A stretch of 32,000 bases of DNA, taken from positions 1,560,001-1,592,000 of the forward strand of contig NZ_CP019633.1 of NCBI RefSeq assembly GCF_001997385.1, written 5' to 3'. This DNA is from Sedimentisphaera cyanobacteriorum. GTDB lineage: Bacteria; Planctomycetota; Phycisphaerae; Sedimentisphaerales; Sedimentisphaeraceae. The position numbers and the translations under genes were made by a program. Every line of letters begins with the position of its first letter. Positions within the stretch are counted from its first letter, which is position 1. The notes beneath the pieces were generated by a model that made no database searches, had not been told where the DNA came from, and saw only the letters and a program-made list of their open reading frames with translations. Positions 4,931 through 31,299 of this stretch are shown here, in pieces.

Positions 4931-4981
4931 CTGCGGCCCCGCTTTTCAAGCTTAAAACCAAGCGCACCAGCCGCTTAATTT

Positions 4982-5833: not shown

Positions 5834-5866
5834 ATTTCAATCCTCTAAATAGAAGCTGCTAAAGCC

Positions 5867-6826: not shown

Positions 6827-6844
6827 TTGAAACCTTCCATAAAA

Positions 6845-7462: not shown

Positions 7463-7486
7463 GGCACATTCCTTCCCTGCAGGCCG

Positions 7487-7507
7487 CCGGCCGCAGAGAG
7501 CGGCCGG
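7487..7507 (-). promoter_or_regulatory. GC-only 8-bp stem / 5-nt loop hairpin between GspG paralogues 1 and 2 (intra-operon attenuator or mRNA-stabilising element)
   Basis: ccggccgc-agaga-gcggccgg lies 22 nt after the stop of the first GspG-like gene. There is no U-tract after it. Confidence 0.4.
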
Positions 7508-7528
7508 GCTTATTAAGTCTTAACAGGA

Positions 7529-8500: not shown

Positions 8501-8623
8501 AATTCCTGTCCTTTCGATATTACTTTTTAACAAGCCCGGCTTACTGACCGGCCGGAAATCGGCATTTATTAGATTTCAGATTTACGATTCAAAATTTTCA
8601 ATTTTTATTTTTTGCTTTCCTGA

Positions 8624-9877: not shown

Positions 9878-9887
9878 TTCTCACTCC

Positions 9888-11636
9888 TTACTCTTCATCA
9901 GCAATGGTCTCCTTGACAACTTCTTCAATGGTCGTAAGCCCATCATAGATTGCCCTGAGCCCGCTTTCTCTAAGTAATACCATACCGCCTTTTCTTGCAG
10001 AGTTCCTGAGAACGGCAGTTGAGGCGTCATTCATTATCAAATCACGAATTTCATCGTTGAAGGCCATAATTTCAAAAATGCCGAGTCTGCCTTTGTAACC
10101 TGTGTTGTTGCAAACATCGCAGCCTCTGCCCCTGTAAAACTTTTTACCCTTCACATCGGAGGGGGTTAGGCCGAGTTCCATAAGCTCTTCTTCGGCCGGC
10201 TGATACTCCCTTTTGCAGTTCTGGCATACACGCCTTACAAGACGCTGTGCAACGATAGCCTCTACAGTTGCAGTAACGAGGAATTTCTCGAGGCCGAGGT
10301 CCAACAGACGAGCCACAGCACTCGGTGCGTCGTTGGTGTGAACCGTAGTTAAAACGAGGTGTCCTGTTAGGGCAGCTTCAGCAGAGATCTGGGCTGTCTG
10401 AAAATCTCGAATCTCACCAACCATTATCACGTCTGGGTCCTGCCTTAAGATTGATCTCAAACAGGCAGGGAACGTGAGGCCGATATCCGTTCTTATCTGA
10501 ACCTGATGAAGGCCTTCAACATCGTACTCTACCGGATCCTCAGTTGTGATTACCTTTCTTTCAATGCTGTTGAGCTCTTTGAGGCCTGCATAGAGTGTGG
10601 TTGTTTTTCCTGAGCCGGTTGGGCCGGTAACGATGACAATCCCGTTCGGCCTTCCGATAACCTGCTCCATAAGATCAACCTCCCTAGGCCCGAGGCCGAG
10701 CTCACTCATTGTAAGCTCAATCTGGGAGCGGTCTAAAACACGAAGCACTACGCTCTCGCCGAATACCGTGGGCAGTATGCTCACACGCATATCCACCTGT
10801 CGGTTGTTGAGAGTAAGCGAGATACGGCCGTCCTGAGGGAGACGCCTTTCGGAAATATCCAGATCCGCCATTACCTTAACCCTCGAACTGAGAGCTACAG
10901 CAATATGCTTAGGCGGAGGAACCATCTCGTAGAGCACCCCGTCAATACGGTAGCGCATGCGGTAGCTCTCTTCAAAAGGCTCGAAGTGTATATCGGAGGC
11001 CTTGTCGTTTATCGCCTGAATCAAAACAAGATTCAGCAGCTTCTTAACAGAGCTGGATTCGGCAAGCTCGGAGATCTCGTCGAGGTCGATACTCTCATCG
11101 CGGCCTTCCATACTTGTAAGGAAGGAATCCTTCTCGATCTCTCCGATAATTTCGTTTATGTTGCCCTTGTCTTTTGAGTAGTACCTGTCCAGCACCTGAT
11201 CAAGGGAATTTTTAGATGTAACCACAGCCTTGACATTATAGCCCATCAAACTCTTGAGCTCATCTGTAGCCCTGAAATTGTTCGGGTCGTCTATTGCTAT
11301 GGTGAGAAGGTTATCTGACTTGCTGAAATCAACAGGAACAATCCTGTAGGAGGCTGCCATTTGTGCCGGAATAGTGCTGGCCACCTCGTCGCTGAGCTCC
11401 ATCCCTTCAATCTCGCTGTATTCCATTCCCCTCTGCGCGGCCAATGCTACGTTCAGCTGCTGCTGGGTAATGTGCCCCTGGGATATCAGGATCTGCCCAA
11501 GCTTTTGCCCCGCCATCTCGGACTTCTGCAGCTTGATGCATTCATGCAGAACATTCCTCGTAAGGATGCCCTTCTTTATAAGGACCCTTCCAAGGTATCT
11601 ACCCCTGAGTTGATCTAATGGGACTTCTTTAGCCAT
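9888..11636 (-). CDS. gspE: PilB/GspE-type assembly ATPase, copy 2, with N-terminal MshEN-like domain
   Basis: 582 aa. Walker A GPTGSGKTT; Asp box TTEDPVEY; Walker B VIMVGEIRD; His box TGHLVLTTVHTNDA; tetracysteine CQNC...CDVCNNTGYKGRLGIFE. The N-terminus carries two tandem LGxxLIxxGxIxxxxLxxxLxxQ motifs. Confidence 0.9.
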   Translation of the reverse strand: MAKEVPLDQLRGRYLGRVLIKKGILTRNVLHECIKLQKSEMAGQKLGQILISQGHITQQQLNVALAAQRGMEYSEIEGMELSDEVASTIPAQMAASYRIVPVDFSKSDNLLTIAIDDPNNFRATDELKSLMGYNVKAVVTSKNSLDQVLDRYYSKDKGNINEIIGEIEKDSFLTSMEGRDESIDLDEISELAESSSVKKLLNLVLIQAINDKASDIHFEPFEESYRMRYRIDGVLYEMVPPPKHIAVALSSRVKVMADLDISERRLPQDGRISLTLNNRQVDMRVSILPTVFGESVVLRVLDRSQIELTMSELGLGPREVDLMEQVIGRPNGIVIVTGPTGSGKTTTLYAGLKELNSIERKVITTEDPVEYDVEGLHQVQIRTDIGLTFPACLRSILRQDPDVIMVGEIRDFQTAQISAEAALTGHLVLTTVHTNDAPSAVARLLDLGLEKFLVTATVEAIVAQRLVRRVCQNCKREYQPAEEELMELGLTPSDVKGKKFYRGRGCDVCNNTGYKGRLGIFEIMAFNDEIRDLIMNDASTAVLRNSARKGGMVLLRESGLRAIYDGLTTIEEVVKETIADEE

Positions 11637-11692
11637 AATTAGCTTTCTCCGTCTTCTTTGCGAAACTCGAGCATTATTGAAGCTCTAACATT

Positions 11693-11720
11693 AATATAAC
11701 ACTGAAAAACCGCATTACAA
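11693..11720 (-). promoter_or_regulatory. Putative internal sigma70-type promoter (extended -10) upstream of gspE copy 2
   Basis: On the minus strand, TTGTAA-N16-(TGT)TATATT sits in the 175-bp pilT/gspE gap. The RBS gacggag follows. Confidence 0.3.
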
Positions 11721-11811
11721 GCAATAAAAAGGTTAGACACTTAGTAATTGAAACAGCCTCTTTGTATAGAATGCGGATTTGGGCTTTTGAAACATCCAAA
11801 TTTTGGGCGTC

Positions 11812-12948
11812 TCAGGCCTGGCCGAGAGTCTGCATTTCTCCAATGATCGGCCCCATTTTTGCGTGGTCGGGGTCTTTGGGGAAGTTTTCCCTTGCCTTCT
11901 TGAGCATCTCTGCGGGGTTTCTGGATTTGTCAACCAGCTCCATAAGGGAAATCTGCCCCTTCTGATAAAGCTCCCATAAGTGGTCGTCAAGAAGCCTCAT
12001 ACCCAGATTGCGGCATGTCTGTATGGTTGATTCAATCCTATAGGTCTTATTTTCCCTGATAAGGTTTGAAATAGCTGGAGTAACAAGCATAAACTCGTAT
12101 GCCGCTACCCTGCCTTTTGCATTCTTAACCGGACAAAGCGTTTGAGAAAGCACGGCAATAAGGTTGGTACTGAGCTGCACCCTGATCATTTCCTGCTGAT
12201 TGGTAGGGAAGGCATCAATAATCCTGTTTACAGTTCCCTGACAGCCGGTGGTGTGAAGCGTTCCAAATACCAAGTGTCCAGTCTCTGCGGCACTTATAGC
12301 AGCCTCGATTGTATCGAGATCGCGAAGCTCACCTACGAGAATAACATCGGGGTCCTGACGCAGAGATCTCTTCAGTGCCTCAGCAAAAGTGGGCACATCA
12401 AGCCCTACCTCACGCTGGTTTATAACCGCCCTTTTGTGGTTATGATAATACTCAATCGGCTCTTCCACAGTAATGATATGTGTATCAAGATTTTCGTTGA
12501 TATAGTTAATCATACTTGCAAGCGTTGTCGTTTTACCCGAACCAGTTGGGCCGGTAACGAGGAACAGGCCTCTCGGGCGTCTGCAAAGGCTGGCAGTTGG
12601 GCCGGGGAGGCCAATCTGATCAAATGATAAAAACTTTGAGGGAATCAGACGAAGAACCATCGAAATATTGCTCTTCTGCCTGAAAACCGCCACACGGAAA
12701 CGACCGTAATCGCCGAAAGCGAAACCAAAATCGCAGCTTCCGTCTTCCTGAAGCTGCTGCTGATTTTTCTCCGGCGTAATACTTTTCATAAGGGCTGTAG
12801 TGTCCTCAGAATCCAGCACTTTTGTATCCAGTGATTTGAGCGATCCGCTGATACGAAGTGTCGGCGGGCGGCCTACGACAATATGTATATCTGAGCCCCC
12901 CATTCTGATACAAGCATCAAGTAACCTGTCAATTTGTATAGTTGCCAT
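11812..12948 (-). CDS. pilT: PilT-type retraction ATPase
   Basis: 378 aa. SDIHIVVGRPPTLRISG; Walker A GPTGSGKTT; DPDVILVGELRD; ETGHLVFGTLHT; PilT signature AISNLIRENK. No N-terminal T2SSE_N domain and no tetracysteine motif. Confidence 0.9.
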   Translation of the reverse strand: MATIQIDRLLDACIRMGGSDIHIVVGRPPTLRISGSLKSLDTKVLDSEDTTALMKSITPEKNQQQLQEDGSCDFGFAFGDYGRFRVAVFRQKSNISMVLRLIPSKFLSFDQIGLPGPTASLCRRPRGLFLVTGPTGSGKTTTLASMINYINENLDTHIITVEEPIEYYHNHKRAVINQREVGLDVPTFAEALKRSLRQDPDVILVGELRDLDTIEAAISAAETGHLVFGTLHTTGCQGTVNRIIDAFPTNQQEMIRVQLSTNLIAVLSQTLCPVKNAKGRVAAYEFMLVTPAISNLIRENKTYRIESTIQTCRNLGMRLLDDHLWELYQKGQISLMELVDKSRNPAEMLKKARENFPKDPDHAKMGPIIGEMQTLGQA

Positions 12949-12992
12949 TTATGTAAATCCTGTAATTTTATAATGATATTATAAATAATTTT

Positions 12993-14705
12993 TTATTCGA
13001 TAACAATCTCGTCGCTCTGCGCAACTCTGGCCACCTCTTCGGGCGTTGTGTAGCCTGAGAAGATCTTCTTAATCCCGTCTTCAACCAGAGGCCTCATCCC
13101 GCTTGAAAGGGCAGCTTTTCGAAGCTCCTGAGTAGGAGCGCAGGCAAACGCAAGCTCTCTCAATTCTGTATTCATTTCGAGCATTTCGAAAATAGCCATA
13201 CGCCCCTTATAGCCTGTGCCGTTGCACCTGCTGCAGCCTTTTCCTTTGTATATTGGTTTTTCTTTGAAGTCTTCATTTTGAATGTTCAATGCACGAAGGT
13301 ATCTTGAATCGGGTTCATGGTCAACCTCCTTGCATTCAGAGCAAATCCTTCTTACAAGCCTCTGAGCCATAATGGCCTGTATCGAACTTGCCACGAGGAA
13401 AGGCTTAACGCCCATGTCAATCAAACGAGCTACAGCACTTGAGGCATCGTTTGTATGGAGTGTACTGAATACCAAGTGTCCTGTGAGAGCTGCCTGAATG
13501 GCGATATCAGCCACCTCGCCGTCTCGAATCTCACCAACAAGAATAACATTCGGCGACTGCCTCAGCATAGAACGCAGGATAGTGGAAAAATCAAGTTTGA
13601 TTTCCGTATTAACCTGACACTGATTTATTCCGCCTACCATATACTCAACAGGGTCTTCAGCGGTAATAATCTTCTTATCCGGACGGTTAAGCTCTTTCAG
13701 AGCTGAGTAGAGCGTAGTTGTTTTACCAGAACCCGTTGGGCCGGTAACAAGGAAAATACCGTTCGGCCTCTTGATAATTTTTTCAAATCTGCCGTAAAGC
13801 TCGTCATCAAACCCGAGTGCCTGAATACCGATATTAACATTATCCGGACGCAGAATACGAAGAACAATGCTCGGGCCGTGATACCCGGGAAGGCAGGATA
13901 CACGAAAATCGATCTGCGTTCCTTTGTACTCCCTCTTAATACGGCCGTCCTGAGGAATCCTTCTTTCCGCAATATCCATATTGGAAAGAATCTTGAAACG
14001 GGCAATCAGCGGATTCTGCATATTCTTGGGCACATCGCTTCGCTCTATGCACACGCCGTCGATTCTGTAGCGAATACGCACCCTTGAGGCCATTGATTCA
14101 ATATGAATATCCGAAGCCCCCATATTAACCGCTTCATCAATAATCAGATTAGCAAGCTTGATTACAGGCCCGTCATCATCGGCCTGCTCGGCATTGCCTG
14201 CAATCTTGATTGTGCTTTCAATTGTCTCGCCCTCTTCGAAGAGGTCTTCAGTAGCCTTATCGATGCTGTCTCGTATTACATCTGTAGCCTTATTGATGTA
14301 TTCCCGAATTCGAGTTGGACTGCCTACATAACATTCGAGGTCTTTGTTGAATTTGAAGCGGAGCGTGTCGAGAGCCTCGAGATTTCGAGGGTCTGAGATG
14401 ATTATTTTCATTTTTCCGTTCTCTTCGCCGAACGGGATTGCCTGTAGGGATTTTACGATGTCCTTGGGGAGATAAGTCTCTACGTTTTCAGGGAGCCTGA
14501 TCTGATCGAAATCGGCGTATTTCATTCCTGCCTGCTTGGCAAGAGCCGAAGCCACATCATCCTCGGTTACCGCGCCCATTTCTACAAGAACCTCGCCTGT
14601 AAGCCGGTCTGTCTTTTGAGCAGTTTTTACTGCTTTTGCCAGAGGCAGCTTATCAACGAGATTCCTACCGTAAAGAATTTCTCCAATTCTTTTTTTCTTA
14701 GCCAT
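12993..14705 (-). CDS. gspE: PilB/GspE-type assembly ATPase, copy 1
   Basis: 570 aa. Walker A GPTGSGKTT; AEDPVEY; VILVGEIRD; TGHLVFSTLHTNDA; CSEC...CSRCNGTGYKGRMAIFE. An N-terminal T2SSE_N-like domain is present with degraded MshEN motifs. Confidence 0.9.
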   Translation of the reverse strand: MAKKKRIGEILYGRNLVDKLPLAKAVKTAQKTDRLTGEVLVEMGAVTEDDVASALAKQAGMKYADFDQIRLPENVETYLPKDIVKSLQAIPFGEENGKMKIIISDPRNLEALDTLRFKFNKDLECYVGSPTRIREYINKATDVIRDSIDKATEDLFEEGETIESTIKIAGNAEQADDDGPVIKLANLIIDEAVNMGASDIHIESMASRVRIRYRIDGVCIERSDVPKNMQNPLIARFKILSNMDIAERRIPQDGRIKREYKGTQIDFRVSCLPGYHGPSIVLRILRPDNVNIGIQALGFDDELYGRFEKIIKRPNGIFLVTGPTGSGKTTTLYSALKELNRPDKKIITAEDPVEYMVGGINQCQVNTEIKLDFSTILRSMLRQSPNVILVGEIRDGEVADIAIQAALTGHLVFSTLHTNDASSAVARLIDMGVKPFLVASSIQAIMAQRLVRRICSECKEVDHEPDSRYLRALNIQNEDFKEKPIYKGKGCSRCNGTGYKGRMAIFEMLEMNTELRELAFACAPTQELRKAALSSGMRPLVEDGIKKIFSGYTTPEEVARVAQSDEIVIE

Positions 14706-17222: not shown

Positions 17223-18565
17223 TTAAAATTCCATTTCGCTCTCGAGGAATCCAGTATCAATTTGGTTGTTCCTGTATGAGGGGTGATCAATTATCTGGAG
17301 CGAAGCAGGTATTGTAGTTTTGATCGGAGCTATACGGAATTCCTGCAAGGCGCGTTTCATAGTAGCAAGAGCCGTTTCCCTGTCGGGCTGGTGAACGAGC
17401 AGCTTTGCAATCATAGAATCATAATTCGGCGAGATAAAATCCCCCTGCTTGAGGAAAGTTTCCACACGTACGCCAAAACCGCCCGGCACAAAAAACTCAT
17501 CTATAGGCCCGGGGCTGGGGCGAAATTCATCTGGGGATTCTCAGCGTTTATCCTGCACTCTATCGCGCATCCCTCAAGCTTTATATCATCCTGAGATACC
17601 GGCAGGGGCAGTCCCGCTGCCACAAGTATCTGATGCTTGATAAGGTCTTGGCCCGTAACAAGCTCAGAAACAGGGTGCTCAACCTGTATCCTGGTATTAA
17701 CTTCAATAAAGTAGAAGTTGTTATCCTTGTCGAGGAGGAATTCAATTGTAGCAGCGTTGTGGTAGTTCGCCTCTTTCAGCAGTCTCTTTGCGGCTTCGCA
17801 GAGCTTTTCCCTTGTTTCAGGCTTAATCACCGGACATGGAGCTTCTTCGATTAGCTTCTGATGCCTTCTCTGGACAGAGCAGTCTCGTTCGTAGAAGTGA
17901 ACCACATTTCCGTAAGTATCCGCCAATGCCTGCACCTCAACGTGCCTGGGGCGTTCGATGAACTTCTCTATGTAAACCTCATCATTCTTGAAGGCAATCT
18001 CCGCCTCGCTTTTTGCAGCAGTAAGGGCATTTTTCAGGTTCAGGTCGTTGTGAACAACCCTCATTCCCCTGCCGCCTCCGCCTGCGGAAGCCTTTACTAT
18101 AACTGGAAATCCAATCTCTTTTGCAAGCTCGAAAGCCTGAGCCTCAGATTCAATCGCCCCATCAGAGCCCGGAACAACGGGCACATCGGCCTTCAAGGCA
18201 ATCTCTCTTGCCTTTACCTTATCCCCAAGCTGCTTCATAGATTCCGGCGATGGGCCGATAAATGTAATCCCGCAGTCTGCGCATATCTCGGCAAACTCCG
18301 CATTCTCTGCAAGAAATCCGTAGCCGGGATGAATCGCATCAACATCTGTTATTTCCGCTGCGCTTATAATAGCCTGCACATTCAGATAGCTTTTAGCAGG
18401 CTGGGCAGGACCGATACAAACTGCATGGTCTGCGAACTTAACATAGGAGGCGTTTCTATCCGCCTCTGAAAACACTGCTACAGATTCTATACCAAGCTCT
18501 TTACAGGCACGAATTACCCGAAGGGCAACCTCGCCCCTGTTTGCAATCAAAATTCTTGAAAACAT
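17223..18565 (-). pseudogene. accC: Acetyl-CoA carboxylase biotin carboxylase (accC), split into 354-aa and 88-aa ORFs by a 1-nt frameshift
   Basis: The N-terminal fragment [26 protein letters not shown]...[14 protein letters not shown]...CRINAENP then leaves the homologous frame. The homologous sequence continues in the -1 frame as [25 protein letters not shown]...DSMIAKL. The shift maps to the C4 run (G4 on the + strand, 17533-17536). Confidence 0.9.
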
Positions 18566-21823: not shown

Positions 21824-23011
21824 ATGGTAAAAGTAAGTCGAAGAGCGAAAGAAGTGCCGGCTTCAGCTACTATGGCTGTTGCATCAAGGGCTAAAGAGCT
21901 GAAGGCTCAAGGGGTAGATGTAGTCAGTTTCGGTGCAGGCGAGCCGGATTTTGACACACCGGAACATATTAAGCAGGCTGCTGTTAAGGCTTTGAAAGAC
22001 GGAAAAACAGGCTACACTCCAACGCCTGGAATTCCTGAGCTCAGAGAAGCTGTTGCAGATAAACTCAAAAGAGACAACGACCTCGAATACGAACCTACTC
22101 AGGTGATTATCAACGTAGGTGCGAAACATTCAATCTATTCAACAATGCAGGCAATTGTGGATCCAGGGGATGAGATTCTACTTCCTGCCCCGTACTGGGT
22201 AACTTACCCGGAGGCAATTAAACTTGCCGGCGGCAAGCCTGTAGCAATAGCAGGTCAAGAAGAAAATCAGCATAAGGTTAGTGCAGAGCAGATTAAGGCT
22301 GCAATAACAGATAAAACTGCCGCCCTTCTGCTGAACTCTCCAAACAACCCTGGCGGATTTACCTATACACCTGAAGAACTGCGGAAAATAGCCGAGGTTC
22401 TTGAAGGTACCGATATCACAGTAATCTCAGACGAGATATACGAAAAGCTTGTTTACGGCGACACAGAATTTATGAGCTTTGCTGCTGTAAGCAATGACGC
22501 ATTAGAAAGAACGGTAACCATCAACGGCTGGAGCAAGGCATACGCCATGACCGGCTGGCGGTTAGGCTTCACTGCCGGCCCGCAGGATATAATCTCGGCG
22601 ATGGGCAGAATTCAGTCTCATATGACGCAGAATCCTGTAAGCTTTGTTCAGTATGCAGGCATCGCAGCATTTGACTGCGCAGATGAAGTAGAGAAAATGC
22701 GAAGCGAATTCGAAAAAAGAGCAGAATACACCTACAACCGTCTTAACGGCATCTACGGTGTTCACTGCGACAGACCTACCGGAGCTTTCTACTGCTTCCC
22801 GGATGTAAGCAGCTTCTACGGCAAGAAAATCGGCGGGGAGATCATAAACGGAAGTATGGACTTTGCTAAAGGGCTCCTGGAGCAGGCTAACGTTGCGATG
22901 GTTCCGGGCGGGCCATTTGGATGCGATAAAAACATCAGGCTGAGCTTTGCCTGTTCAATGGAAAATATCGAAAAAGGAATAGACAGGCTTGAGCAATGGC
23001 TGACGAGCTGA
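21824..23011 (+). CDS. aspC: Class I pyridoxal-phosphate aminotransferase (aspartate aminotransferase-like)
   Basis: MVKVSRRAKEVPASATMAVASRAKELKAQGVDVVSFGAGEPDFDTP...LLNSPNNPGG...NGWSKAYAMTGWRLGF (PLP-Lys motif SKxxxMTGWRxG). ATG 21824 is preceded by ggggaa. Confidence 0.85.
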   Translation: MVKVSRRAKEVPASATMAVASRAKELKAQGVDVVSFGAGEPDFDTPEHIKQAAVKALKDGKTGYTPTPGIPELREAVADKLKRDNDLEYEPTQVIINVGAKHSIYSTMQAIVDPGDEILLPAPYWVTYPEAIKLAGGKPVAIAGQEENQHKVSAEQIKAAITDKTAALLLNSPNNPGGFTYTPEELRKIAEVLEGTDITVISDEIYEKLVYGDTEFMSFAAVSNDALERTVTINGWSKAYAMTGWRLGFTAGPQDIISAMGRIQSHMTQNPVSFVQYAGIAAFDCADEVEKMRSEFEKRAEYTYNRLNGIYGVHCDRPTGAFYCFPDVSSFYGKKIGGEIINGSMDFAKGLLEQANVAMVPGGPFGCDKNIRLSFACSMENIEKGIDRLEQWLTS

Positions 23012-25302
23012 AGGCGAACTCAAAACCCAGCAAGCATCAAATCGTAAGTATTTTAGTGTGGCTGGCTTTTTTTGTATATGCCGGCCACTGTTTTTCTCAT
23101 ATGGTTGCCGCAGGTGATACGTGGGTAGCAATGGCCTGCGGCAGGCATTTTTCGAACCACGGCGTTGATACTGTAGAGCCGTTCAGCGCTAACTCTCACT
23201 CTACAGGGCCTACCGAAGAAGACCTTGAGCCCTGGCCGGAATTTACCCACGATTTCCTGAAAGAATACCATCCAACAGGCTGGATAAATCAAAACTGGCT
23301 TACTCAGCTCATATTCTTTGAAATAGCCGGAGGCGAGGGCAGCAAAACAAACTACGACAGGCTGAACTACAACGCTATGGTTGTATGGAAGTTTATCATC
23401 TGCCTGCTTGTAATATGCAGCGTTTACTATAGCTCACGCCTTCTCGGGGCAGGAAAGATAAACGCAGCGTTTTTTGCAGCGGTTTCTGTATTTGTGGGCA
23501 GAAGCTTCTACGACATCCGACCTGCTGTATTTTCGAATATGCTTGTGCCGGTATTTATCCTGATTCTGCTTTTGAGCCAGCGGAAAAACAGACGGTTTAT
23601 ATGGCTGAGCGTCCCGCTTATTGTTTTCTGGGGCAATGTACACGGCGGATACCTTTACGCCTTCATTACGTTGTTTCTTTTCTGGGCAATCAACCTGATT
23701 GTCTGGAAGTTTAAGCCGCGATTCTGCAAGCTTTGCTCAGGCCAGCTTATAATCGACACAATGCTTGCAGGTGCTGCATCGTTTATAGCGATGGTAATCT
23801 TAAACCCCTACCACCTGACCAACCTCACCCATACGTTCATAATTACAGTCAGCGAGCATGCTTCAGAATGGAAAGATGTAAACGAATGGCACAGCGCTTT
23901 TGAGCTGAGCAATCCGGTGGGAACTTCGATTCCGTTTATCATAATGCTCGGGCTGGGCGGTGCGGCCCTGCTTGTCTGGGGAATAATCACTGTTGCCAAG
24001 ATAAAAAAGGCTGGCAGATTGCAAGCAAACAAAACGAAAAATATATCAGCAGATTCAGAGCCTCCCGGAAAGCCTCAAATTGACCCTGCTTATATCGCTA
24101 TAGTTTTATTCTCATTGTGGATGGCAGTAAGCTCGAGAAGATTTATTCCAATTGCATCTGCAGCCTTCTGCCCGCTTCTTGCTATGATAGCCCAGCAGGC
24201 CATAAACAAAATCTCAAATAACCTATCTGCAATGCCCGACAGGAAGCGCCTCTTAGAAAAAATATCAATAGCAGCATTTGCAGCTTTCGTGCTTATCCCG
24301 GGCGTGCTTTGGGCGGGCAAATTCAAGAAGGTTTATTTAGACCCATTCTGCCTCGACGATACGTACAACAGCATTTTTATGCGTATGACCGCTTCTTACG
24401 CCAAACCGTTTGAGGCATGTGAATTTATTCGGGAAAACAATCTATCCGGAAATATGCTCAACTACTGGACAGAAGGCGGCTTCATAGCATTTATGCAAAA
24501 CCCCGACCCCGAAACTGGCTTTATCCCGCTAAAGCTGTTTATGGACGGACGTGCTCAGGCGGCCTATGATATCGAGATGTTCAGAACTTATAAAAACGAA
24601 ATAATGAGCGGCGGGGAAGACTTCCGAAGAATTGCCCAAAAAGCAAGGCGCCAGAGAAAAAGGCTATCAAGCTTCAAAGAAGAGCTCAGAGAGGCCTCGA
24701 AGAAAATGGATGAAAGGCTCAACAGCAAAGAAGTATGGATATATCTGATGCCTTCAAATGCTGTTAAAAGCGGTTTTATGACCCTTATGCGGTACAACAG
24801 CGACTGGAAACCGGTTTATATCGACGGCAAGCAGTCTATATTTGTTGACACTGACACGGAAAAAGGGCTTGAGCTCTACAAGGGGCTTTTCAACGGCGAT
24901 ACCAAGTACCCTTCAGAACACATACGGAAAACCTCGCTCATTCATTATCTGATCGGTTCAAAGCCGGAAGAGGCGTACAGGCGGGCACGCAAACTCTACG
25001 AGAAATCCGAAGAACTTCTTGCAATGAAACTGCTCACAGATTCAGCAAGAACCAAAGAGCTAAAAGAGAAGGCGTATGAATACTGCAAAGCAGAGATATC
25101 CGATTTTGTGAAAGAGAAAGACCAGCTCCACAAGCAGGACGGGTATATAAATAAGTACAGCATTGCTGATATATGCCTGAAGTTTGTTATAAATAACAGC
25201 AAAGATTTTGCAAGCGACAAAAACAAGATCTCGGTTTACAAGTCTTACAGGGAGCAGCTCAAAGAAGAGACAGGGCGAATCAGGGAAGCAACTAAATGGT
25301 AA
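22996..25302 (+). CDS. Large polytopic membrane protein, GT-C-fold glycosyltransferase-like, with ~300-aa helical C-terminal soluble domain
   Basis: 768 aa with about 12 hydrophobic helices in the first ~450 aa. An acidic residue lies in the first loop (AAGDTWVAMACGRHF...EPFS), as in ArnT/PMT-type enzymes. It overlaps aspC by 16 nt and the following GT2 gene by 7 nt. The family assignment is an inference, not a recognised signature. Confidence 0.45.
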   Translation: MADELKANSKPSKHQIVSILVWLAFFVYAGHCFSHMVAAGDTWVAMACGRHFSNHGVDTVEPFSANSHSTGPTEEDLEPWPEFTHDFLKEYHPTGWINQNWLTQLIFFEIAGGEGSKTNYDRLNYNAMVVWKFIICLLVICSVYYSSRLLGAGKINAAFFAAVSVFVGRSFYDIRPAVFSNMLVPVFILILLLSQRKNRRFIWLSVPLIVFWGNVHGGYLYAFITLFLFWAINLIVWKFKPRFCKLCSGQLIIDTMLAGAASFIAMVILNPYHLTNLTHTFIITVSEHASEWKDVNEWHSAFELSNPVGTSIPFIIMLGLGGAALLVWGIITVAKIKKAGRLQANKTKNISADSEPPGKPQIDPAYIAIVLFSLWMAVSSRRFIPIASAAFCPLLAMIAQQAINKISNNLSAMPDRKRLLEKISIAAFAAFVLIPGVLWAGKFKKVYLDPFCLDDTYNSIFMRMTASYAKPFEACEFIRENNLSGNMLNYWTEGGFIAFMQNPDPETGFIPLKLFMDGRAQAAYDIEMFRTYKNEIMSGGEDFRRIAQKARRQRKRLSSFKEELREASKKMDERLNSKEVWIYLMPSNAVKSGFMTLMRYNSDWKPVYIDGKQSIFVDTDTEKGLELYKGLFNGDTKYPSEHIRKTSLIHYLIGSKPEEAYRRARKLYEKSEELLAMKLLTDSARTKELKEKAYEYCKAEISDFVKEKDQLHKQDGYINKYSIADICLKFVINNSKDFASDKNKISVYKSYREQLKEETGRIREATKW

Positions 25303-27344: not shown

Positions 27345-28478
27345 ATGACAAAGGGACAACCAATAGACAGTCATCGGAGCGTAAATCATAATCCGAAAAT
27401 AAACAAGTTTTTTAAAACCGTTATCTCATACAAAGCGAGCGACCTCCATCTTAAAGTAGGCCTTCCGCCTAAGATGCGTATAGACGGTGTTCTCAAGAAG
27501 ATGAAGGCAGACGTAATCACAGAAGAGACAATGGAAGATCTTATCTTCGATCTTCTCACAGAAGAGCAGAAAAAATTCTTCCTCAAGCGCGGCTCAATAG
27601 ACTTTGCCCACGCCCTAACTGAGATTGACAGATTCCGTGTGAACGTATTCCGCCAGAAGGGATACATAGGGCTTGTTGCAAGGCGTATTGATTCGAATAT
27701 CCCGCCTTTTGAAAAGCTGAACCTGCCCCCCATTATTCGAGATATAGCAGAATATCCCACTGGGCTTGTGCTTGTGGTAGGGCCTACCGGCTCAGGCAAG
27801 AGTACTACAATTGCATCAATGATAGACAAAATCAACAGAGAGCGTGCCTGCCATATAGTAACCGTTGAGGATCCTATCGAATATGTCCATCAGGACAGAA
27901 AGGCCAATGTTAATCAGCGTGAGGTGGGCATAGACTGTGTTGACTTTAAGGACGCTCTGCGTAGCCTTATGAGGCAGGATCCGGATGTAGTGCTTGTGGG
28001 TGAAATTCGAGACGTGGAAACGCTGGAAGCAGCTATGCAGGCGGCAGAGACAGGCCATCTTGTATTTGGTACACTTCACGCAGCAAGCGCTTCTCAGACT
28101 ATACAGCGTATTCTAGATATGTTCCCGCAGGAAGAAAGGGAACTTGCAAGGCAGACATTTGCACTTACTATCAGGGGAATCATCGCCCAGATGCTGCTTC
28201 CGAGTATTGACCCGAAAGTTAAGAGGGTTCCGGCGCTTGAGATTATGGTAGCAAATCCATCGGTGAGGAAGCTGCTGAAAGAGGAAAGGGAAGATGACAT
28301 CCCTTCTGTAATACGCTCATCACAAAATGAAGGTATGCAGGACTTGACAGAAAGCCTGAGAATACTTATAGAAAAAGAACTTATAGACCTCGACAACGCC
28401 CTGGTATACGCACCGAACAAAGAAGAGCTGAGGATGGCAATAAAAGGAATCAGAGCTAATTCAAGCGCAATTCTCTAA
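27345..28478 (+). CDS. Divergent PilT/PilU-family hexameric ATPase
   Basis: ATG 27345 is preceded by agagga. ASDLHLKVGLPPKMRIDG; Walker A GPTGSGKST; VEDPIEY; DPDVVLVGEIRD; ETGHLVFGTLHA. The PilT signature AIRNLIRE is replaced by PSVRKLLKE. Confidence 0.85.
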   Translation: MTKGQPIDSHRSVNHNPKINKFFKTVISYKASDLHLKVGLPPKMRIDGVLKKMKADVITEETMEDLIFDLLTEEQKKFFLKRGSIDFAHALTEIDRFRVNVFRQKGYIGLVARRIDSNIPPFEKLNLPPIIRDIAEYPTGLVLVVGPTGSGKSTTIASMIDKINRERACHIVTVEDPIEYVHQDRKANVNQREVGIDCVDFKDALRSLMRQDPDVVLVGEIRDVETLEAAMQAAETGHLVFGTLHAASASQTIQRILDMFPQEERELARQTFALTIRGIIAQMLLPSIDPKVKRVPALEIMVANPSVRKLLKEEREDDIPSVIRSSQNEGMQDLTESLRILIEKELIDLDNALVYAPNKEELRMAIKGIRANSSAIL

Positions 28479-28535
28479 TGTGCAGCAGGGTAGGCTTTGA
28501 AAACTAAATACAAACAGATTAACGGAGCATAATAG

Positions 28536-30167
28536 ATGTATTACTTATCCCTTTTAGCAGATATATCCTTCTCCGGCTATATTGCGATCTACAAATTTAT
28601 ACCATTTGTTTTGCTGTTTTATTTATGGCTTCTGCTTGTCAATTGGGTTCATTTCGACACAAAGGCCGTTCAGACAGACACAATGAAATGGGTTTCGATT
28701 ATTACTGCAGGCGGGCTTATGGCGATGTGCCTATGGCTTTTTGTGCCTGTATTTATAATCGGCTTCTCATCTTATCTGCTCTTAATGATCACCACAATAA
28801 TGGTTTACGTGATCCACAGAAACTCACTTGTTGCTGATTTTGAAAAAGTACTCACGCTAAACCATATCAAAGGGCTTTTGAGCAACGAATCTGCAAAAAT
28901 CGAAAAAGCCGCTCGCGGATTCAGTTTCGTAACTGCAAACGGCAACCCCGTTGAGATACCCGAGCCCAAAACGAAAGAGGCATACGGCTTCAAAACAGCC
29001 TGCTATCTGCTTGATGATGCGATCTGGAAAAGGGCTGAGCTGATCAAGATCACGCCCGGGGAAGAAGAATACAAAGTTAATTACGTAATAGACGGACTGA
29101 AAAACGATGCCGACCCAATAGAAGCTGAAGAAATGCCCTACCTGCTCTACTATCTCAAACAGCTTGCAGATTTGGATGTGGAGGAGAAAAGAAAGCCGCA
29201 GACAGGAAAATTCCAAACGAAAAAAGACGGCGATAAGTCAAGCTGGCATATCACTACTGCCGGTTCAAGACAGGGCGAACACATTACTATAAAGAAGGAT
29301 GTACAGTTCAGCCTGATGTCTTTTGCAGAGCTGGGCTTTGAATCCGACCAGATCGACGAGCTGAAAAAACTCAAGGACGCCCCGAAGGGACTGTTCCTTG
29401 TTGCTGGGACAAAAGGCTCTGGTCTTACCTCCTGCCACTACACGCTGCTGAGAAATCACGATCCGTTCCTCAACAGCATCAACACACTTGAGAAATCACC
29501 CGCAGGCGACGTACAAAGCATTATTCAGAATGTTTACGACCCTAGCGAGGGAATGAGCTATGCAGAGCGGCTTAAGGCTCTGATAAGAAGAGGCCCTGAT
29601 ATTGTGGGCGTGTTCGACTGCAACGACCCTGAAACAGCAAAGGCTGCATGCGAGGCCTCGAAGAAGAAGCTAATTTACGTATCAATAGAATCAAAGACAG
29701 CTCTTAAAGGCCTTGCACATTGGATAAAGATGGTTGGCGACAAAAAAGAGGCTATTGAACCCTTGATAGGACTTGCCTCCAGCCACCTTGTAAGAAGGCT
29801 TTGCGAGGAGTGCAGGGAAGAATACATCCCGAACCCCGGCACACTCAAGAAACTCAGCATAGCTCCTGAGAGGGTTAAATCTCTATGGAGACCTGGAGAT
29901 ATCGAATACACCAGAGGCGGAAAACCAATTCTCTGCGAAAACTGCCAGGGACAGGGCTACAAAGGCCGAGTGGGCGTTTATGAGTCCTTCGTATTAAGCG
30001 AAGAGGTTAGAAAAGAGATGCTTGCGGCTAAGAGTATAAAGGAAATCAGCGCTTCGCTGAAACGAAACGGGATGCAGTTTTTCCAGGAAAGACTCACGCA
30101 GAAAATATCAGATGGAAGCACAAGCATCAACGAAATGATACGAGTATTGAAGGTATTAAACGGTTAA
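28536..30167 (+). CDS. Membrane-anchored GspE/PilB-family protein with degenerate catalytic motifs (predicted pseudo-ATPase)
   Basis: 543 aa with about 3 N-terminal TM helices (residues ~14-95). The N2-like domain (YKVNYVIDG...KRKPQTGKF) and the tetracysteine CEEC...CENCQGQGYKGRVGVYE are retained. Walker A is GTKGSGLTS (Lys lost), the Asp box is TLEKSPAGD, Walker B is IVGVFDCND (Glu lost) and the His box is KKKLIYVSIESKTA. Confidence 0.7.
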   Translation: MYYLSLLADISFSGYIAIYKFIPFVLLFYLWLLLVNWVHFDTKAVQTDTMKWVSIITAGGLMAMCLWLFVPVFIIGFSSYLLLMITTIMVYVIHRNSLVADFEKVLTLNHIKGLLSNESAKIEKAARGFSFVTANGNPVEIPEPKTKEAYGFKTACYLLDDAIWKRAELIKITPGEEEYKVNYVIDGLKNDADPIEAEEMPYLLYYLKQLADLDVEEKRKPQTGKFQTKKDGDKSSWHITTAGSRQGEHITIKKDVQFSLMSFAELGFESDQIDELKKLKDAPKGLFLVAGTKGSGLTSCHYTLLRNHDPFLNSINTLEKSPAGDVQSIIQNVYDPSEGMSYAERLKALIRRGPDIVGVFDCNDPETAKAACEASKKKLIYVSIESKTALKGLAHWIKMVGDKKEAIEPLIGLASSHLVRRLCEECREEYIPNPGTLKKLSIAPERVKSLWRPGDIEYTRGGKPILCENCQGQGYKGRVGVYESFVLSEEVRKEMLAAKSIKEISASLKRNGMQFFQERLTQKISDGSTSINEMIRVLKVLNG

Positions 30168-30189: not shown

Positions 30190-31299
30190 ATGATAGTAAT
30201 TGGTCTTTTCGCAGTAATAACACTGGCAATATTAGCCGAGGCGATTGTAAAGCCGAATTTTTATAAGTATGTAATAATGCTGTTCTCGATGGTGAGCGGG
30301 CTTGTATTTGCGTTCTCGTTTTTCGAGCCGCTTTCTAAGATTGTATCAAAGATAAACTGGTTCCCGGCGGCAGCAGAAGGACTGTCATTCGTTCTTATTT
30401 TCGGAATATCCTTCGCAATCCTGAAACTGCTTGGAGATTTCACAATTCGCCCGGAATTGAAACTCCCCGACATTGTAAACAGGTCTTTTTCGGCTTTGTT
30501 CTCTTTGATATTCAGCTTTTTTGTTACGGGAATGATAATTGTTTTTCTCTCGATGATGCCCATGGAATCAAAGTACCCTTACCCCAGATACGCAAACAAG
30601 CCGATAGTTACAAACAGCAACTATGAGATTGCACCGGACAATACTTTCCTGAATCTCGATTCAGCGGTTACCGGATTCTACAATATGCTCTCTGCAGGAA
30701 GCCTTAGCGGAGATAAGAATTTCGGTATAGTTCACGACAACTTCATAGACACCAACTTCCTCGACAGAGCTCTTTATGAGGAAGGAGTTTCCCCAATAGC
30801 CGGCGAGAAAGCTATCGATGTACCGAATACACCTCAGGCAGTTCGCAAGGCGCCCAAGCTTATGAAATACGACGAGGTCAATCAAGTAGTGAAGAAGATT
30901 TCCGGCAAGCAGATGTTTCTGGTGAAGGTAGAGATATCTCAGGATAAAGTGAAAAACGGGGGAATAATAGAAAAAGGCGGCGGATACGAAATAGGCCCTG
31001 CCCAGCTTCGCCTTATCTGCAACAAAAACTACGCTGATATGTTCAAGGGCGACGGGCTTTCTGTTTTCCCTGTGGGCTATGTTACAGATAACAGCAAATT
31101 CAAAAAATTTGACCTAAAATCAAAATTTAATCTTCTTCCGCACAAACCCGATAAAAACAAAAATGCGGTATTAGACGTAGGGTTTTATGTTCCTGAAGGC
31201 TACGTACCTGTAGCATTGGAATTGAGACAGGACGATATTGCCAGGGTTCCAAATGTAAACGCAGAGCCTGAAGAAGAGCAATCAGAACAAAACGGATAA
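30190..31299 (+). CDS. Polytopic membrane protein, CvpA-like N-terminal region + unknown C-terminal domain
   Basis: 369 aa with four hydrophobic helices in the first ~125 aa. Spacing and a PDIVNRSFSALFSLIFSFFVTGMIIV segment resemble CvpA (colicin V production) family topology; the similarity is weak. The ~240-aa C-terminal part has no motif I recognise. Confidence 0.4.
   Translation: MIVIGLFAVITLAILAEAIVKPNFYKYVIMLFSMVSGLVFAFSFFEPLSKIVSKINWFPAAAEGLSFVLIFGISFAILKLLGDFTIRPELKLPDIVNRSFSALFSLIFSFFVTGMIIVFLSMMPMESKYPYPRYANKPIVTNSNYEIAPDNTFLNLDSAVTGFYNMLSAGSLSGDKNFGIVHDNFIDTNFLDRALYEEGVSPIAGEKAIDVPNTPQAVRKAPKLMKYDEVNQVVKKISGKQMFLVKVEISQDKVKNGGIIEKGGGYEIGPAQLRLICNKNYADMFKGDGLSVFPVGYVTDNSKFKKFDLKSKFNLLPHKPDKNKNAVLDVGFYVPEGYVPVALELRQDDIARVPNVNAEPEEEQSEQNG

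What the first reader, a model, noticed from the sequence alone, without database searches (positions are those of the whole stretch)
28536..30167. GspE/PilB-family protein with N-terminal TM helices and every catalytic box degenerate
The active paralogues in this window allow a direct comparison. Walker A: GPTGSGKTT versus GTKGSGLTS (29406-29432), with the invariant Lys replaced by Leu. Asp box: TTEDPVEY versus NTLEKSPAGD. Walker B: VGEIRD versus VGVFDCND. His box: TGHLVLTTVHTNDA versus KKKLIYVSIESKTA. The N2-domain core and the C-terminal tetracysteine motif are preserved, which argues for a folded, selected pseudo-enzyme rather than decay. Secretion ATPases are normally soluble and recruited via GspL/PilM, so a covalent membrane anchor is atypical.
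Basis: seen in the sequence. Interest (0 to 1): 0.75.

Follow-up and report, generated by a model that had tools for sequence, protein, structure and literature searches.

The report
Membrane-anchored inactive secretion-ATPase paralogue
This gene encodes a membrane-anchored copy of a pilus/secretion motor protein that has lost its ATP-splitting residues; it is nevertheless conserved in hundreds of Planctomycetota genomes, nearly always between an intact PilT-type motor gene and a CvpA-type membrane-protein gene, which points to a three-protein membrane module I could not find described.

Summary
ORF 28536-30167 (+, 543 aa) is a GspE/PilB-family protein (Pfam T2SSE, 148 bits; predicted fold matches PilF/PilB, TM-score 0.90). 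Three N-terminal transmembrane helices replace the usual soluble N-domain. The Walker A lysine, first arginine finger and both His-box histidines are lost, and the catalytic Glu is Asp. The Asp-box Glu, P-loop glycines and Zn-binding cysteines are kept.

It is not gene decay. At least 509 species genomes carry full-length orthologues, and the best 80 are all labelled Planctomycetota. Among the 120 best database homologues (42-72% identical) none has the Walker lysine.

The gene sits in a conserved cassette: a dedicated PilT-like ATPase with all motifs intact (72/74 loci), then this gene, then a CvpA-family membrane protein (68/75 loci). One metagenomic protein fuses CvpA to this protein type.

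The same anchor and cassette occur in a clade that includes Gemmataceae, where the orthologue keeps every catalytic residue. The anchor is therefore ancestral and the inactivation derived.

Best reading (inferred): a membrane-embedded scaffold ring that couples the PilT-like motor to CvpA. I found no literature, Pfam or NCBIfam description. Verdict: real, a new variant of a known kind, moderately high interest.

The parts
28536..30167 (+). Whole ORF: membrane-anchored, catalytically degenerate GspE/PilB-family protein (543 aa)
   Evidence: ORF; Pfam T2SSE 148 bits; 100% identical to the protein that a source names 'Type II traffic warden ATPase [Sedimentisphaera cyanobacteriorum]'
28524..28527 (+). 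GGAG Shine-Dalgarno-like sequence, 8 nt upstream of the ATG
   Evidence: Read directly from the sequence
28536..28829 (+). N-terminal membrane domain (aa 1-98): predicted TM helices at aa 18-45, 49-69 and 73-98. No Pfam family matches it.
   Evidence: Hydropathy; AF2 helices with block-mean pLDDT 81-91 over residues 21-100; invariant W31, W37, D41, W52, W67, P71, G76, Y91, R95; Pfam finds nothing significant; a phmmer search with this region found 271 representative proteins, and the 43 of 500 aa or more (among the best 150) that I aligned all carry GspE-type motif regions
28830..29006 (+). Conserved juxtamembrane linker (aa 99-157), including the VLT..H motif also present in the Gemmataceae-containing active clade
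   Evidence: Family consensus; comparison with the active clade
29007..29330 (+). N2D-like domain (aa ~158-265) with the family signature E-K-R-K-P-Q (aa 217-222, nt 29184-29201); first arginine finger replaced (H238)
   Evidence: Alignment to PilF/GspE structures; invariant E217, R219, K220, P221, Q222; Arg-finger columns
29406..29432 (+). Walker A remnant GTKGSGLTS; the canonical Lys position is L297
   Evidence: V67/L27/I19/T6/A1 and no K among 120 family members; G291, G296 and T298 are conserved
29481..29510 (+). Asp-box remnant NTLEKSPAGD; the Mg-coordinating Glu (E319) is kept, the following Asp is Lys
   Evidence: E 120/120; K/R 117/120; role of this Glu from PMC5424180
29604..29627 (+). 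Walker B remnant VGVFDCND; Gly->Phe, catalytic Glu->Asp (D361), Arg->Asn
29661..29702 (+). His-box remnant KKKLIYVSIESKTA; both His lost (K378, E385)
29802..29945 (+). Tetracysteine Zn-binding motif (C423, C426 ... C467, C470), with an insertion between the two Cys pairs relative to the canonical paralogues
   Evidence: all four Cys present in 82/82 loci
27345..28478 (+). Upstream partner: dedicated PilT-like ATPase with all motifs intact (likely start M28 of the listed ORF)
   Evidence: TIGR01420 436 bits; intact boxes; present upstream in 72/74 loci at 50-83% identity; 43% identical to the window's other PilT; boxes recognised in 53/53 parsed loci, Walker B in 52/53
30190..31299 (+). Downstream partner: CvpA-family membrane protein (Colicin_V domain, aa 24-128) with a ~230-aa C-terminal region of unknown family; 22-nt intergenic gap
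   Evidence: Pfam PF02674 at 40.9 bits; present downstream in 68/75 loci; the 92%-identical protein is named 'CvpA family protein' in S. salicampi; gap read

Best explanation
SHOWN. The gene encodes a GspE/PilB-type protein in which three transmembrane helices replace the soluble N-terminal domain. Its nucleotide site lacks the Walker A lysine, the first arginine finger and both His-box histidines. It is conserved under purifying selection. It is the middle gene of a cassette found across Planctomycetota: PilT-like ATPase, then TM-anchored GspE-like protein, then CvpA-family membrane protein. A clade that includes Gemmataceae carries the same anchor with every catalytic residue intact, so the membrane anchor is ancestral and the loss of catalysis is derived.

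INFERRED. The protein no longer hydrolyses ATP. It still assembles into a GspE-like ring: the Zn motif, the conserved QRLVRR stretch (R417, R420) where I place the GspE/PilB inter-chain arginine, and the N2D/CTD fold are all retained. This ring would be held in the inner membrane by 18 helices. There it would act as a fixed scaffold or adaptor that docks the co-encoded, catalytically intact PilT-like hexamer and the CvpA-family protein. ATP turnover by PilT would then be transmitted to the membrane components. Non-catalytic subunits play a comparable role next to catalytic ones in other ring ATPase machines.

The output of the module is unknown. Candidates are envelope or membrane transport, or remodelling.
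For: Homology and fold: Pfam T2SSE E=3.7e-43; profile against PDB PilF/GspE/PilB at E 1e-57 to 1e-70; AF2 mean pLDDT 86 and Foldseek TM-score 0.90 to PilF/PilB.

Loss of residues that PMC5424180 reports as completely conserved in the PilT-like ATPase family: Walker Lys is K in 0 of 120; Arg finger 1 is E in 93 of 120; His-box residues become K/R and E/D; catalytic Glu is D in 88 of 120.

Selection: 375 database homologues with the best 120 full length, and 509 species genomes. The TM domain contains invariant residues. All four Cys and the Asp-box Glu are 100% conserved. R417 is nearly invariant and R420 invariant.

Cassette: PilT-like upstream in 72/74 loci and CvpA-like downstream in 68/75. 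The same order holds in four distant homologues, one from a genome named Planctomycetales bacterium 10988. The PilT partner keeps all boxes and is a distinct PilT paralogue: 43% identical to the window's canonical PilT but 50-83% identical to cassette PilTs in other genomes. Short gaps with SD-like sequences suggest one operon.

Physical link to CvpA: P0207 fuses Colicin_V + TM domain + T2SSE in an order different from the gene order, so it is not a simple read-through.

Ancestral activity: the 120 closest homologues of P0254 carry the same TM domain (E 1e-18 to 1e-26). In that clade the Walker Lys is K in 119/120, the arginine fingers R in 119/120 and 120/120, the Asp-box Glu E in 120/120, and the Walker B and His-box consensus is canonical at >80%. 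They are basal in a rough NJ tree.
Against: No experiment or complex prediction was possible. Ring formation, contact with PilT and contact with CvpA are all inferred.

The hypothesis that PilT substitutes for the lost activity predicted that catalytically intact orthologues would lack the PilT partner. They do not. PilT's role therefore predates the inactivation and is not simply compensatory.

The P-loop glycines, Walker Thr, Asp-box Glu and an acidic residue at the catalytic position are retained, and 117 of 120 members have a K or R at P-loop positions 2-5. Nucleotide binding cannot be excluded.

The ex-catalytic positions show only average conservation (about the 50th percentile), so there is no strong sign of a new, tightly selected pocket.

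The NJ tree is crude and vulnerable to long-branch effects.
Confidence: 0.5

Rival explanations
1. Non-hydrolysing nucleotide (or other phosphate-ligand) sensor. The degenerate site still binds ATP/ADP or a signalling nucleotide through the retained P-loop backbone, the Walker Thr, the Asp-box Glu and a displaced Lys/Arg. Ligand occupancy would switch the ring's conformation and so regulate the PilT-like motor or CvpA.
For: G291, G296, T298 and E319 are invariant or nearly so. 117 of 120 members carry K/R at P-loop positions 2-5, with consensus GPKKSGVTS. An acidic residue persists at the catalytic position in 96 of 120.
Against: The phosphate-binding Lys is always replaced, in 113 of 120 by a hydrophobic residue (V/L/I). 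Arg finger 1 is usually Glu, a charge reversal facing the phosphates. The displaced K/R positions are only averagely conserved and are G or P in some members.
Confidence: 0.2
2. Accessory subunit of the canonical type IV pilus / type II secretion-like machine encoded elsewhere in the genome (in this window at 2327-14705, minus strand). It would act as a membrane tether or mixed-ring partner for the soluble GspE/PilB ATPases, taking the place of GspL/PilM-type anchors.
For: The window holds two canonical GspE/PilB genes, a PilT, a GspF/PilC and several prepilin-like genes, and Pfam recognised no GspL or PilM. One distant locus has T2SSF and prepilin-like genes about 3-6 kb from the cassette.
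Against: The conserved neighbours are PilT-like and CvpA, not GspE, GspF or pilins. The cassette lies about 13 kb from the pilus cluster on the opposite strand, separated by unrelated genes.
Confidence: 0.15
3. Still an ATPase, working through non-canonical residues (for example K293 replacing the Walker Lys and D361 acting as catalytic base).
For: D361, E319 and T298 are retained and a Lys sits nearby in the P-loop. One orthologue has regained a Lys at the canonical position (L076, GIPQSGKTT).
Against: Five of the family-wide conserved catalytic elements are altered together (Walker Lys, Arg finger 1, both His, Walker B Gly). The replacements vary among orthologues.
Confidence: 0.05
4. Decaying pseudogene, mis-called start or sequencing artefact.
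For: The window does contain an apparent frameshift in another gene, accC, so local errors or pseudogenes occur in this sequence.
Against: The reading frame is intact over 543 aa with an SD-like site. Full-length orthologues occur in at least 509 species genomes with the same motif states. The N-terminal domain is conserved and the fold is predicted with confidence.
Confidence: 0.02

Closest known systems
GspE / PilB / PilF assembly ATPases (Pfam T2SSE PF00437; PilB/GspE clade of the PilT-like ASCE ATPases)
   Same: Homologous N2D + CTD core (27% identity to PilF, TM-score 0.90), the tetracysteine Zn motif typical of the PilB/GspE clade, the conserved QRLVRR stretch, and the Asp-box Glu.
   Different: No N1E/MshEN-type soluble N-domain; three TM helices instead. 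Walker Lys, Arg finger 1, both His-box His and Walker B Gly are lost, and the catalytic Glu is Asp. Scores are far below the NCBIfam equivalog cut-offs. The gene is not next to GspF/PilC or pilins.
Catalytically intact orthologues with the same membrane anchor (clade that includes Gemmataceae; e.g. P0254 and its 120 closest homologues)
   Same: Same N-terminal TM domain, same EKRKPQ signature, same Zn motif, and for P0254 itself the same PilT-like / X / CvpA cassette.
   Different: They keep the Walker A, Asp box, Walker B, His box and both Arg fingers, and most (81 of 119) have an extra hydrophobic, signal-peptide-like N-extension. These proteins also appear to be undescribed.
PilT / PilU pairs (two co-encoded PilT-family ATPases, one dependent on the other; PMC6762196, title and abstract)
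   Same: Two PilT-superfamily proteins encoded side by side and presumably acting together, with one relying on the other's activity.
   Different: I recall PilU being soluble and catalytically active, acting on type IV pili (own knowledge; I did not read the body of the paper). Here one partner is membrane-integral and degenerate, and no pilus genes are linked.
Archaellum FlaH (non-hydrolysing RecA/KaiC-like ring protein between the FlaI ATPase and the FlaJ membrane platform); from my own knowledge, not checked here
   Same: Functional analogy only: a non-catalytic ring component that bridges a PilT-family motor ATPase and membrane components.
   Different: FlaH is not a GspE homologue, is soluble, and keeps its Walker A and binds ATP.
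TM-anchored hexameric ASCE motors (VirD4-type coupling proteins, FtsK/SpoIIIE); from my own knowledge
   Same: Architecture: N-terminal TM helices followed by a ring-forming P-loop domain on the cytoplasmic face.
   Different: A different ASCE family; those are active translocases with known DNA or protein substrates.
GspL / PilM / TcpR-type membrane tethers of secretion ATPases; from my own knowledge
   Same: They solve the same problem of holding a GspE-type ring at the inner membrane.
   Different: Those are separate proteins that bind the ATPase N-domain. Here the tether is covalent and unrelated in sequence, and hhalign found no relation to GspF or CvpA either.

Membership tests
GspE/PilB-type secretion ATPase (T2SSE, PF00437) | Sequence and fold homology of the N2D + CTD core | tested here: met
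   148 bits against a 24.9-bit cut-off; PDB profile hits at E 1e-57 to 1e-70; Foldseek TM-score 0.90
GspE/PilB-type secretion ATPase (T2SSE, PF00437) | Walker A GxxxxGK[ST] with the phosphate-binding Lys | tested here: not met
   GTKGSGLTS, with L297 at the Lys position; 0 of 120 family members have K there
GspE/PilB-type secretion ATPase (T2SSE, PF00437) | Atypical Walker B (hhhhG) followed by the catalytic Glu | tested here: not met
   VGVFDC: Gly->Phe and Glu->Asp (D361). In the family the Glu position is D in 88, E in 8 and other residues in 24
GspE/PilB-type secretion ATPase (T2SSE, PF00437) | Asp-box Glu that coordinates Mg2+ | tested here: met
   E319 is conserved in 120/120; the next acidic residue is K/R
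GspE/PilB-type secretion ATPase (T2SSE, PF00437) | Two arginine fingers (R271 and R286 of G. metallireducens PilB) | tested here: not met
   I assigned the equivalent positions from spacing and conservation. Position 238 is H (family: E 93, R 0). Position 253 is K (family: K 46, R 11, other 63)
GspE/PilB-type secretion ATPase (T2SSE, PF00437) | His box with two His | tested here: not met
   K378 and E385; in the family K/R in 110/120 and E/D in 106/120
GspE/PilB-type secretion ATPase (T2SSE, PF00437) | Tetracysteine Zn motif (specific to the PilB/GspE clade) | tested here: met
   C423, C426, C467 and C470 are invariant
GspE (TIGR02533) / PilB (TIGR02538) equivalogs | Score above the curated equivalog cut-off | tested here: not met
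   180 against 630 bits, and 172 against 676 bits
GspE/PilB-type secretion ATPase (T2SSE, PF00437) | Soluble N-terminal domain (N1E or MshEN) and genomic linkage to GspF/PilC, pilins and GspL/PilM | tested here: not met
   Pfam finds no soluble N-domain; TM helices occupy that position. The conserved neighbours are PilT-like and CvpA
GspE/PilB-type secretion ATPase (T2SSE, PF00437) | ATP hydrolysis and hexamer formation | not testable with these tools
   Needs biochemistry, or multimer modelling with coordinates
Pseudo-enzyme (pseudo-ATPase) | Enzyme fold retained, catalytic residues lost, sequence under purifying selection across many lineages | tested here: met
   fold; residues; conservation. 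The actual lack of activity is inferred, not measured.
Planctomycetota PilT-like / TM-GspE-like / CvpA cassette (defined in this work) | Homologous N-terminal 3-TM domain plus EKRKPQ signature; PilT-like gene immediately upstream; CvpA-family gene immediately downstream | tested here: met
   In the window: 27345-28478, 28536-30167, 30190-31299
Anti-phage defence systems (PADLOC) | Match to a known defence-system protein model | tested here: not met
   No hit for the target or for CvpA-like; only generic P-loop hits for PilT-like

The most novel reading that the evidence does not exclude
The PilT-like / TM-anchored GspE-like / CvpA cassette is a previously unrecognised, pilin-independent membrane machine of Planctomycetota. 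A PilT-family motor would act on a membrane-integral GspE-derived ring and a CvpA channel-like protein to move or remodel something in the envelope. In most lineages the ring subunit became a pure stator after losing catalysis. If so, this would also give the long-enigmatic CvpA family its first mechanistic partner.
Probability: 0.3. Interest if true: 0.8.

Novelty: new variant of a known kind. Interest (0 to 1): 0.62.

Why it matters
Secretion and pilus ATPases of the GspE/PilB/PilT family are treated as soluble, catalytically active hexamers that separate proteins recruit to the membrane. This case departs from that picture in two ways. The family member is covalently membrane-anchored, and in a large radiation it has been kept for its structure rather than its chemistry.

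It always travels with a dedicated PilT paralogue and a CvpA-family protein. That defines a compact three-gene module in a phylum known for unusual envelope and membrane biology, where many conserved genes have no known function.

Catalytically intact and degenerate orthologues exist in the same cassette. This is a natural experiment on how a motor subunit becomes a scaffold.

The module also provides a concrete, testable partner for CvpA, a widespread membrane protein whose molecular role is, to my knowledge, still unclear. The practical consequence is that current annotations ('GspE/PulE family protein', 'TadA', 'traffic warden ATPase') over-predict an active secretion ATPase in these genomes.

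Tried and rejected
1. Prediction that catalytically intact TM-anchored orthologues would lack the PilT partner, which would have shown that PilT compensates for lost activity. Rejected: P0254 (all boxes intact) and P0284 (Walker A intact) sit in the same PilT / X / CvpA cassette.

2. Idea that the dead pocket was rewired into a tightly selected salt-bridge network (R->E, D->K, H->K, H->E). Only weakly supported: those positions have average entropy, around the 50th percentile.

3. Origin of the TM domain from CvpA or from GspF/PilC. hhalign probabilities were 0.2% and 0.1%, so no relation was detected. Pfam has no model for the domain.

4. Structure of the CvpA-like partner. The word-based homologue search found only 2 proteins. 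AF2 on the 3-sequence alignment failed (pLDDT 35), so no fold search was run.

5. Foldseek against afdb50, intended to give a taxonomic spread: the library was not available.

6. Defence-system membership: no PADLOC hit.

7. Literature: six searches combining Planctomycetes, GspE, PilB, PilT, CvpA, pseudo-ATPase, transmembrane and degenerate Walker A found nothing on this protein or cassette. A 2025 review of Planctomycetota mentions none of these terms.

8. Essentiality of the cassette in the Planctopirus limnophila Tn-seq data. I could not map the orthologues from product names alone. The only annotated CvpA there (Plim_1277, non-essential) has 'hypothetical' neighbours, and the stored file is truncated.

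9. The look-up of encoding contigs for P0013 returned nothing.
Full report
**1. The observation**

The ORF listing finds an ORF at exactly 28536..30167 on the + strand (543 aa, ATG start). A GGAG sequence sits 8 nt upstream. The next gene begins 22 nt after the stop codon.

Pfam T2SSE matches residues 158-536 at E=3.7e-43 and 148 bits. The two canonical GspE/PilB paralogues in the same window (9888-11636 and 12993-14705, minus strand) score 447 and 435 bits and also carry MshEN N-domains. The NCBIfam GspE and PilB equivalog models give 180 and 172 bits against cut-offs of 630 and 676.

| Motif | Canonical paralogue | This protein |
|---|---|---|
| Walker A | GPTGSGKTT | GTKGSGLTS (nt 29406-29432) |
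| Asp box | TTEDPVEY | NTLEKSPAGD |
| Walker B | VGEIRD | VGVFDCND |
| His box | TGHLVLTTVHTNDA | KKKLIYVSIESKTA |

Both CxxC pairs are present.

Hydropathy shows two strongly hydrophobic blocks in the first 95 residues. An AlphaFold2 model built on 45 orthologues (mean pLDDT 86) places three helices at 18-45, 49-69 and 73-98, followed by a linker and the N2D and CTD domains. The model superposes on Thermus PilF and Geobacter PilB with target-normalised TM-score 0.90 and rmsd 2.4-2.6 A over about 390 residues. A family profile matches PilF, GspE and PilB chains of the PDB at E 1e-57 to 1e-70.

**2. Which catalytic residues are gone**

McCallum et al. (PMC5424180) report as completely conserved across PilT-like ATPases the Walker A and B residues, the catalytic Glu, two arginine fingers and a Glu of the Asp box. 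They report one His-box histidine as highly conserved.

I placed the two arginine fingers at the R of 'xRVS' and the R of 'VLRV', which lie 15 residues apart as R271 and R286 do. This assignment rests on spacing and conservation, not on a structural superposition. Column counts are for the 120 best homologues.

| Element | This protein | Family (n=120) |
|---|---|---|
| Walker Lys | L297 | V67 / L27 / I19 / T6 / A1, no K |
| Walker Thr | kept | T/S in 120 |
| Asp-box Glu | E319, kept | 120 of 120 |
| Next Asp-box residue (Asp in canon) | K | K/R in 117 |
| Walker B Gly | F | A / E / G |
| Catalytic Glu | D361 | D88 / E8 / other 24 |
| Arg finger 1 | H238 | E93, R0 |
| Arg finger 2 | K253 | K46 / R11 / other 63 |
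| His box, first His | K378 | K/R in 110 |
| His box, second His | E385 | E/D in 106 |

'Every box degenerate' is therefore right in substance. However, the Mg-binding Glu, the P-loop glycines and Thr, and an acidic residue at the catalytic position survive. The former catalytic positions are now only averagely conserved (about the 50th percentile of column entropy), while G291, G296, T298 and E319 remain invariant or nearly so.

**3. Not decay, not a mis-called start**

The protein is 100% identical to an entry that a source names for Sedimentisphaera cyanobacteriorum (class Phycisphaerae). The search returned 375 homologues at E<=1e-5, and the best 120 are full length: 543-571 aa, 42-72% identical, 96-100% query coverage.

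A pattern scan of one genome per GTDB species found 509 genomes encoding a relative. The best 80 are all labelled Planctomycetota, many of them Phycisphaerae or Sedimentisphaerales.

Across 45 diverse orthologues the N-terminal membrane region contains invariant residues: Y15, K20, W31, W37, D41, W52, W67, P71, G76, Y91, R95. It is therefore translated and under selection. In the 82 loci examined, all four Cys and E319 are always present, and only one orthologue has a Lys at the Walker position.

**4. Conserved cassette**

In the window the gene lies between a PilT-like gene (27345-28478; TIGR01420 436 bits, all four boxes intact) and a CvpA-family gene (30190-31299; Pfam Colicin_V in residues 24-128, followed by a ~230-residue region with no Pfam match).

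The same order holds in Anaerohalosphaera lusitana and in a second complete genome. Across the fetched loci a PilT-like gene lies immediately upstream in 72 of 74 cases where enough flank exists. A CvpA-like gene lies immediately downstream in at least 68 of 75.

The partner PilT is 50-83% identical between genomes but only 43% identical to the window's other PilT. It is therefore a dedicated paralogue. All four boxes were recognised in the 53 loci I could parse, except the Walker B pattern in one.

**5. The anchor is older than the inactivation**

A phmmer search of 1.84 billion representatives with residues 1-155 alone found 271 proteins at E<=1e-3. I aligned the 43 proteins of 500 aa or more among the 150 listed, and all carry GspE-type motif regions. 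Most have a degenerate Walker A, and a few are intact.

Four of these distant homologues sit in the same cassette, with a HisF-like gene upstream of it:

| Protein | Motif state | Source |
|---|---|---|
| P0254 | all boxes intact | metagenome assembly |
| P0152 | degenerate | genome named Planctomycetales bacterium 10988 |
| P0284 | Walker A intact | metagenome assembly |
| P0285 | degenerate | metagenome assembly |

In three of the four the downstream gene carries a Colicin_V hit on record. The 235-aa gene downstream of P0284 has none.

The 120 closest homologues of P0254, several of them labelled Gemmataceae, all carry the same N-terminal domain (E 1e-18 to 1e-26 against an HMM of the target family's N-terminus). 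Their consensus motifs are GPTGAGKST, ENPVEY, IGEIRD and TGHMVFTTLHANDT. In that clade the Walker Lys is K in 119 of 120, the arginine fingers R in 119 and 120 of 120, and the Asp-box Glu E in 120 of 120. They share the EKRKPQ signature with the target family.

Most of them (81 of 119) have an additional hydrophobic, signal-peptide-like stretch before the conserved RGPGFYF motif. That fits a topology in which the N-terminus faces outward and the GspE-like domain is cytoplasmic.

A rough neighbour-joining tree on 390 columns makes the anchored proteins monophyletic relative to the window's canonical GspE/PilB. The active clade branches first, then partly degenerate forms, then the fully degenerate clades that include the target. 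This tree is indicative only.

**6. Link to CvpA**

One metagenomic protein (P0207, 757 aa) fuses a Colicin_V domain (residues 7-133), the TM domain (218-321) and T2SSE (372-753). The domain order is the reverse of the gene order, so a read-through artefact is unlikely. It is a single instance on a 3.2-kb contig.

**7. Mechanism**

The following points are shown by the data:
- a GspE fold;
- loss of the phosphate-binding and gamma-phosphate-sensing residues;
- a conserved three-helix membrane domain;
- a conserved operon-like cassette with an intact PilT paralogue and CvpA.

The following is inferred. The protein does not hydrolyse ATP. It still forms a GspE-like ring: the Zn motif and the conserved QRLVRR stretch (R417, R420), where I place the GspE/PilB inter-chain arginine, are retained. 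It would serve as a membrane-fixed scaffold that couples the PilT-like motor to CvpA.

I tested one prediction of a 'PilT compensates' version of this idea, namely that active orthologues would lack PilT. It failed. PilT is therefore an original component of the module, not a late replacement.

Alternatives:
- a non-hydrolysing nucleotide sensor (scaffold residues retained; K/R at P-loop positions 2-5 in 117 of 120);
- an accessory of the canonical pilus/secretion machine;
- residual non-canonical ATPase activity;
- decay or artefact, which the comparative data contradict.

**8. Comparison with what is known**

By homology it belongs to the GspE/PilB clade of PF00437, but it fails most catalytic and contextual criteria for a GspE or PilB. 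No Pfam, NCBIfam or PADLOC model is specific for it or for its N-domain.

Sources name it generically: 'GspE/PulE family protein', 'ATPase, T2SS/T4P/T4SS family', 'TadA', 'traffic warden ATPase'. Literature searches found nothing on a membrane-anchored or catalytically dead GspE/PilB homologue, or on a PilT-GspE-CvpA cassette.

Functional analogies come from my own knowledge and were not tested here:
- FlaH next to FlaI in the archaellum;
- PilU next to PilT;
- TM-anchored ring motors such as VirD4 and FtsK;
- GspL/PilM tethers.

**9. Verdict**

Two facts extend it. The anchor is ancestral and shared with orthologues that keep all catalytic residues. The protein is one part of a conserved three-gene module.

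I rate it a new variant of a known kind, with interest about 0.6. It would surprise specialists in type IV filament and type II secretion systems, and it gives a testable handle on both CvpA and planctomycetal envelope biology. Its function, however, remains inferred.

Noticed in passing
window 2327-14705, minus strand: The gene order here is GspE/PilB (12993-14705), PilT (11812-12948), GspE/PilB (9888-11636), GspF/PilC (8624-9877), then seven ORFs. Five of the seven have prepilin N-methylation motifs. This matches the order of the Planctopirus limnophila locus Plim_0410 to Plim_0401 (T2SS E, twitching motility, T2SS E, T2SS protein, six planctomycete-specific hypotheticals), which Tn-seq scored essential (PMC10632474). 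Orthology was not tested by sequence.
   Followed up: partly
window 17223-18565, minus strand: Biotin carboxylase (accC) appears to be split by a frameshift. A 354-aa ORF (17501-18565) ends at '...FAPAPGL*'. The expected C-terminal part ('MPGGFGVRVETF...') continues in another frame as an 88-aa ORF (17223-17489). This could be a sequencing error, a pseudogene or a genuine split gene.
   Followed up: partly
window ~20000: The GC-skew sign flips from negative to positive near 20 kb, where gene orientation switches from minus to plus. This may be a replication origin or terminus, or simply the divergent gene orientation.
   Followed up: no
window 22996-25302, + strand: A 768-aa ORF has no Pfam match even at E<=1. 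It lies between an aminotransferase gene and a family-2 glycosyltransferase gene and overlaps both by a few bases.
   Followed up: no
window 9888-11636 and 12993-14705, minus strand: Both canonical GspE/PilB paralogues have MshEN domains and match the NCBIfam MshE-related c-di-GMP-binding motif model NF053729 (43.3 and 37.5 bits against a cut-off of 38). This suggests c-di-GMP control of at least one of them.
   Followed up: no
window 30580-31299 (C-terminal ~230 aa of the CvpA-like protein); compare L083, L084, L086: The CvpA partner is 340-440 aa in most of the loci of the target's own family but only 201-217 aa, the CvpA domain alone, in L083, L084 and L086. The extra C-terminal region has no Pfam match, and AF2 could not model it.
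   Followed up: partly
P0207 (JGI metagenome protein, 757 aa, 3.2-kb contig): A fusion of Colicin_V/CvpA, the family's TM domain and T2SSE, with a degenerate Walker A (AMPANGLRT).
   Followed up: partly
L076 (Phycisphaerae MAG SKKI01000148.1) and L030, L039, L040: One orthologue inside the degenerate family has a Lys back at the Walker A position (GIPQSGKTT), and three have Arg there (GPAGSGRTT or GPAQSGRTT). Across the 82 loci no orthologue has Arg at the first arginine-finger position.
   Followed up: no
L083-L086, upstream of the cassette: In all four distant loci a HisF-like (His_biosynth) gene lies directly upstream of the PilT-like gene. In the two loci of the target's family whose gene calls were returned (L001, L002) the upstream neighbour is MgtE, and in the window it is alanine racemase.
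   Followed up: no
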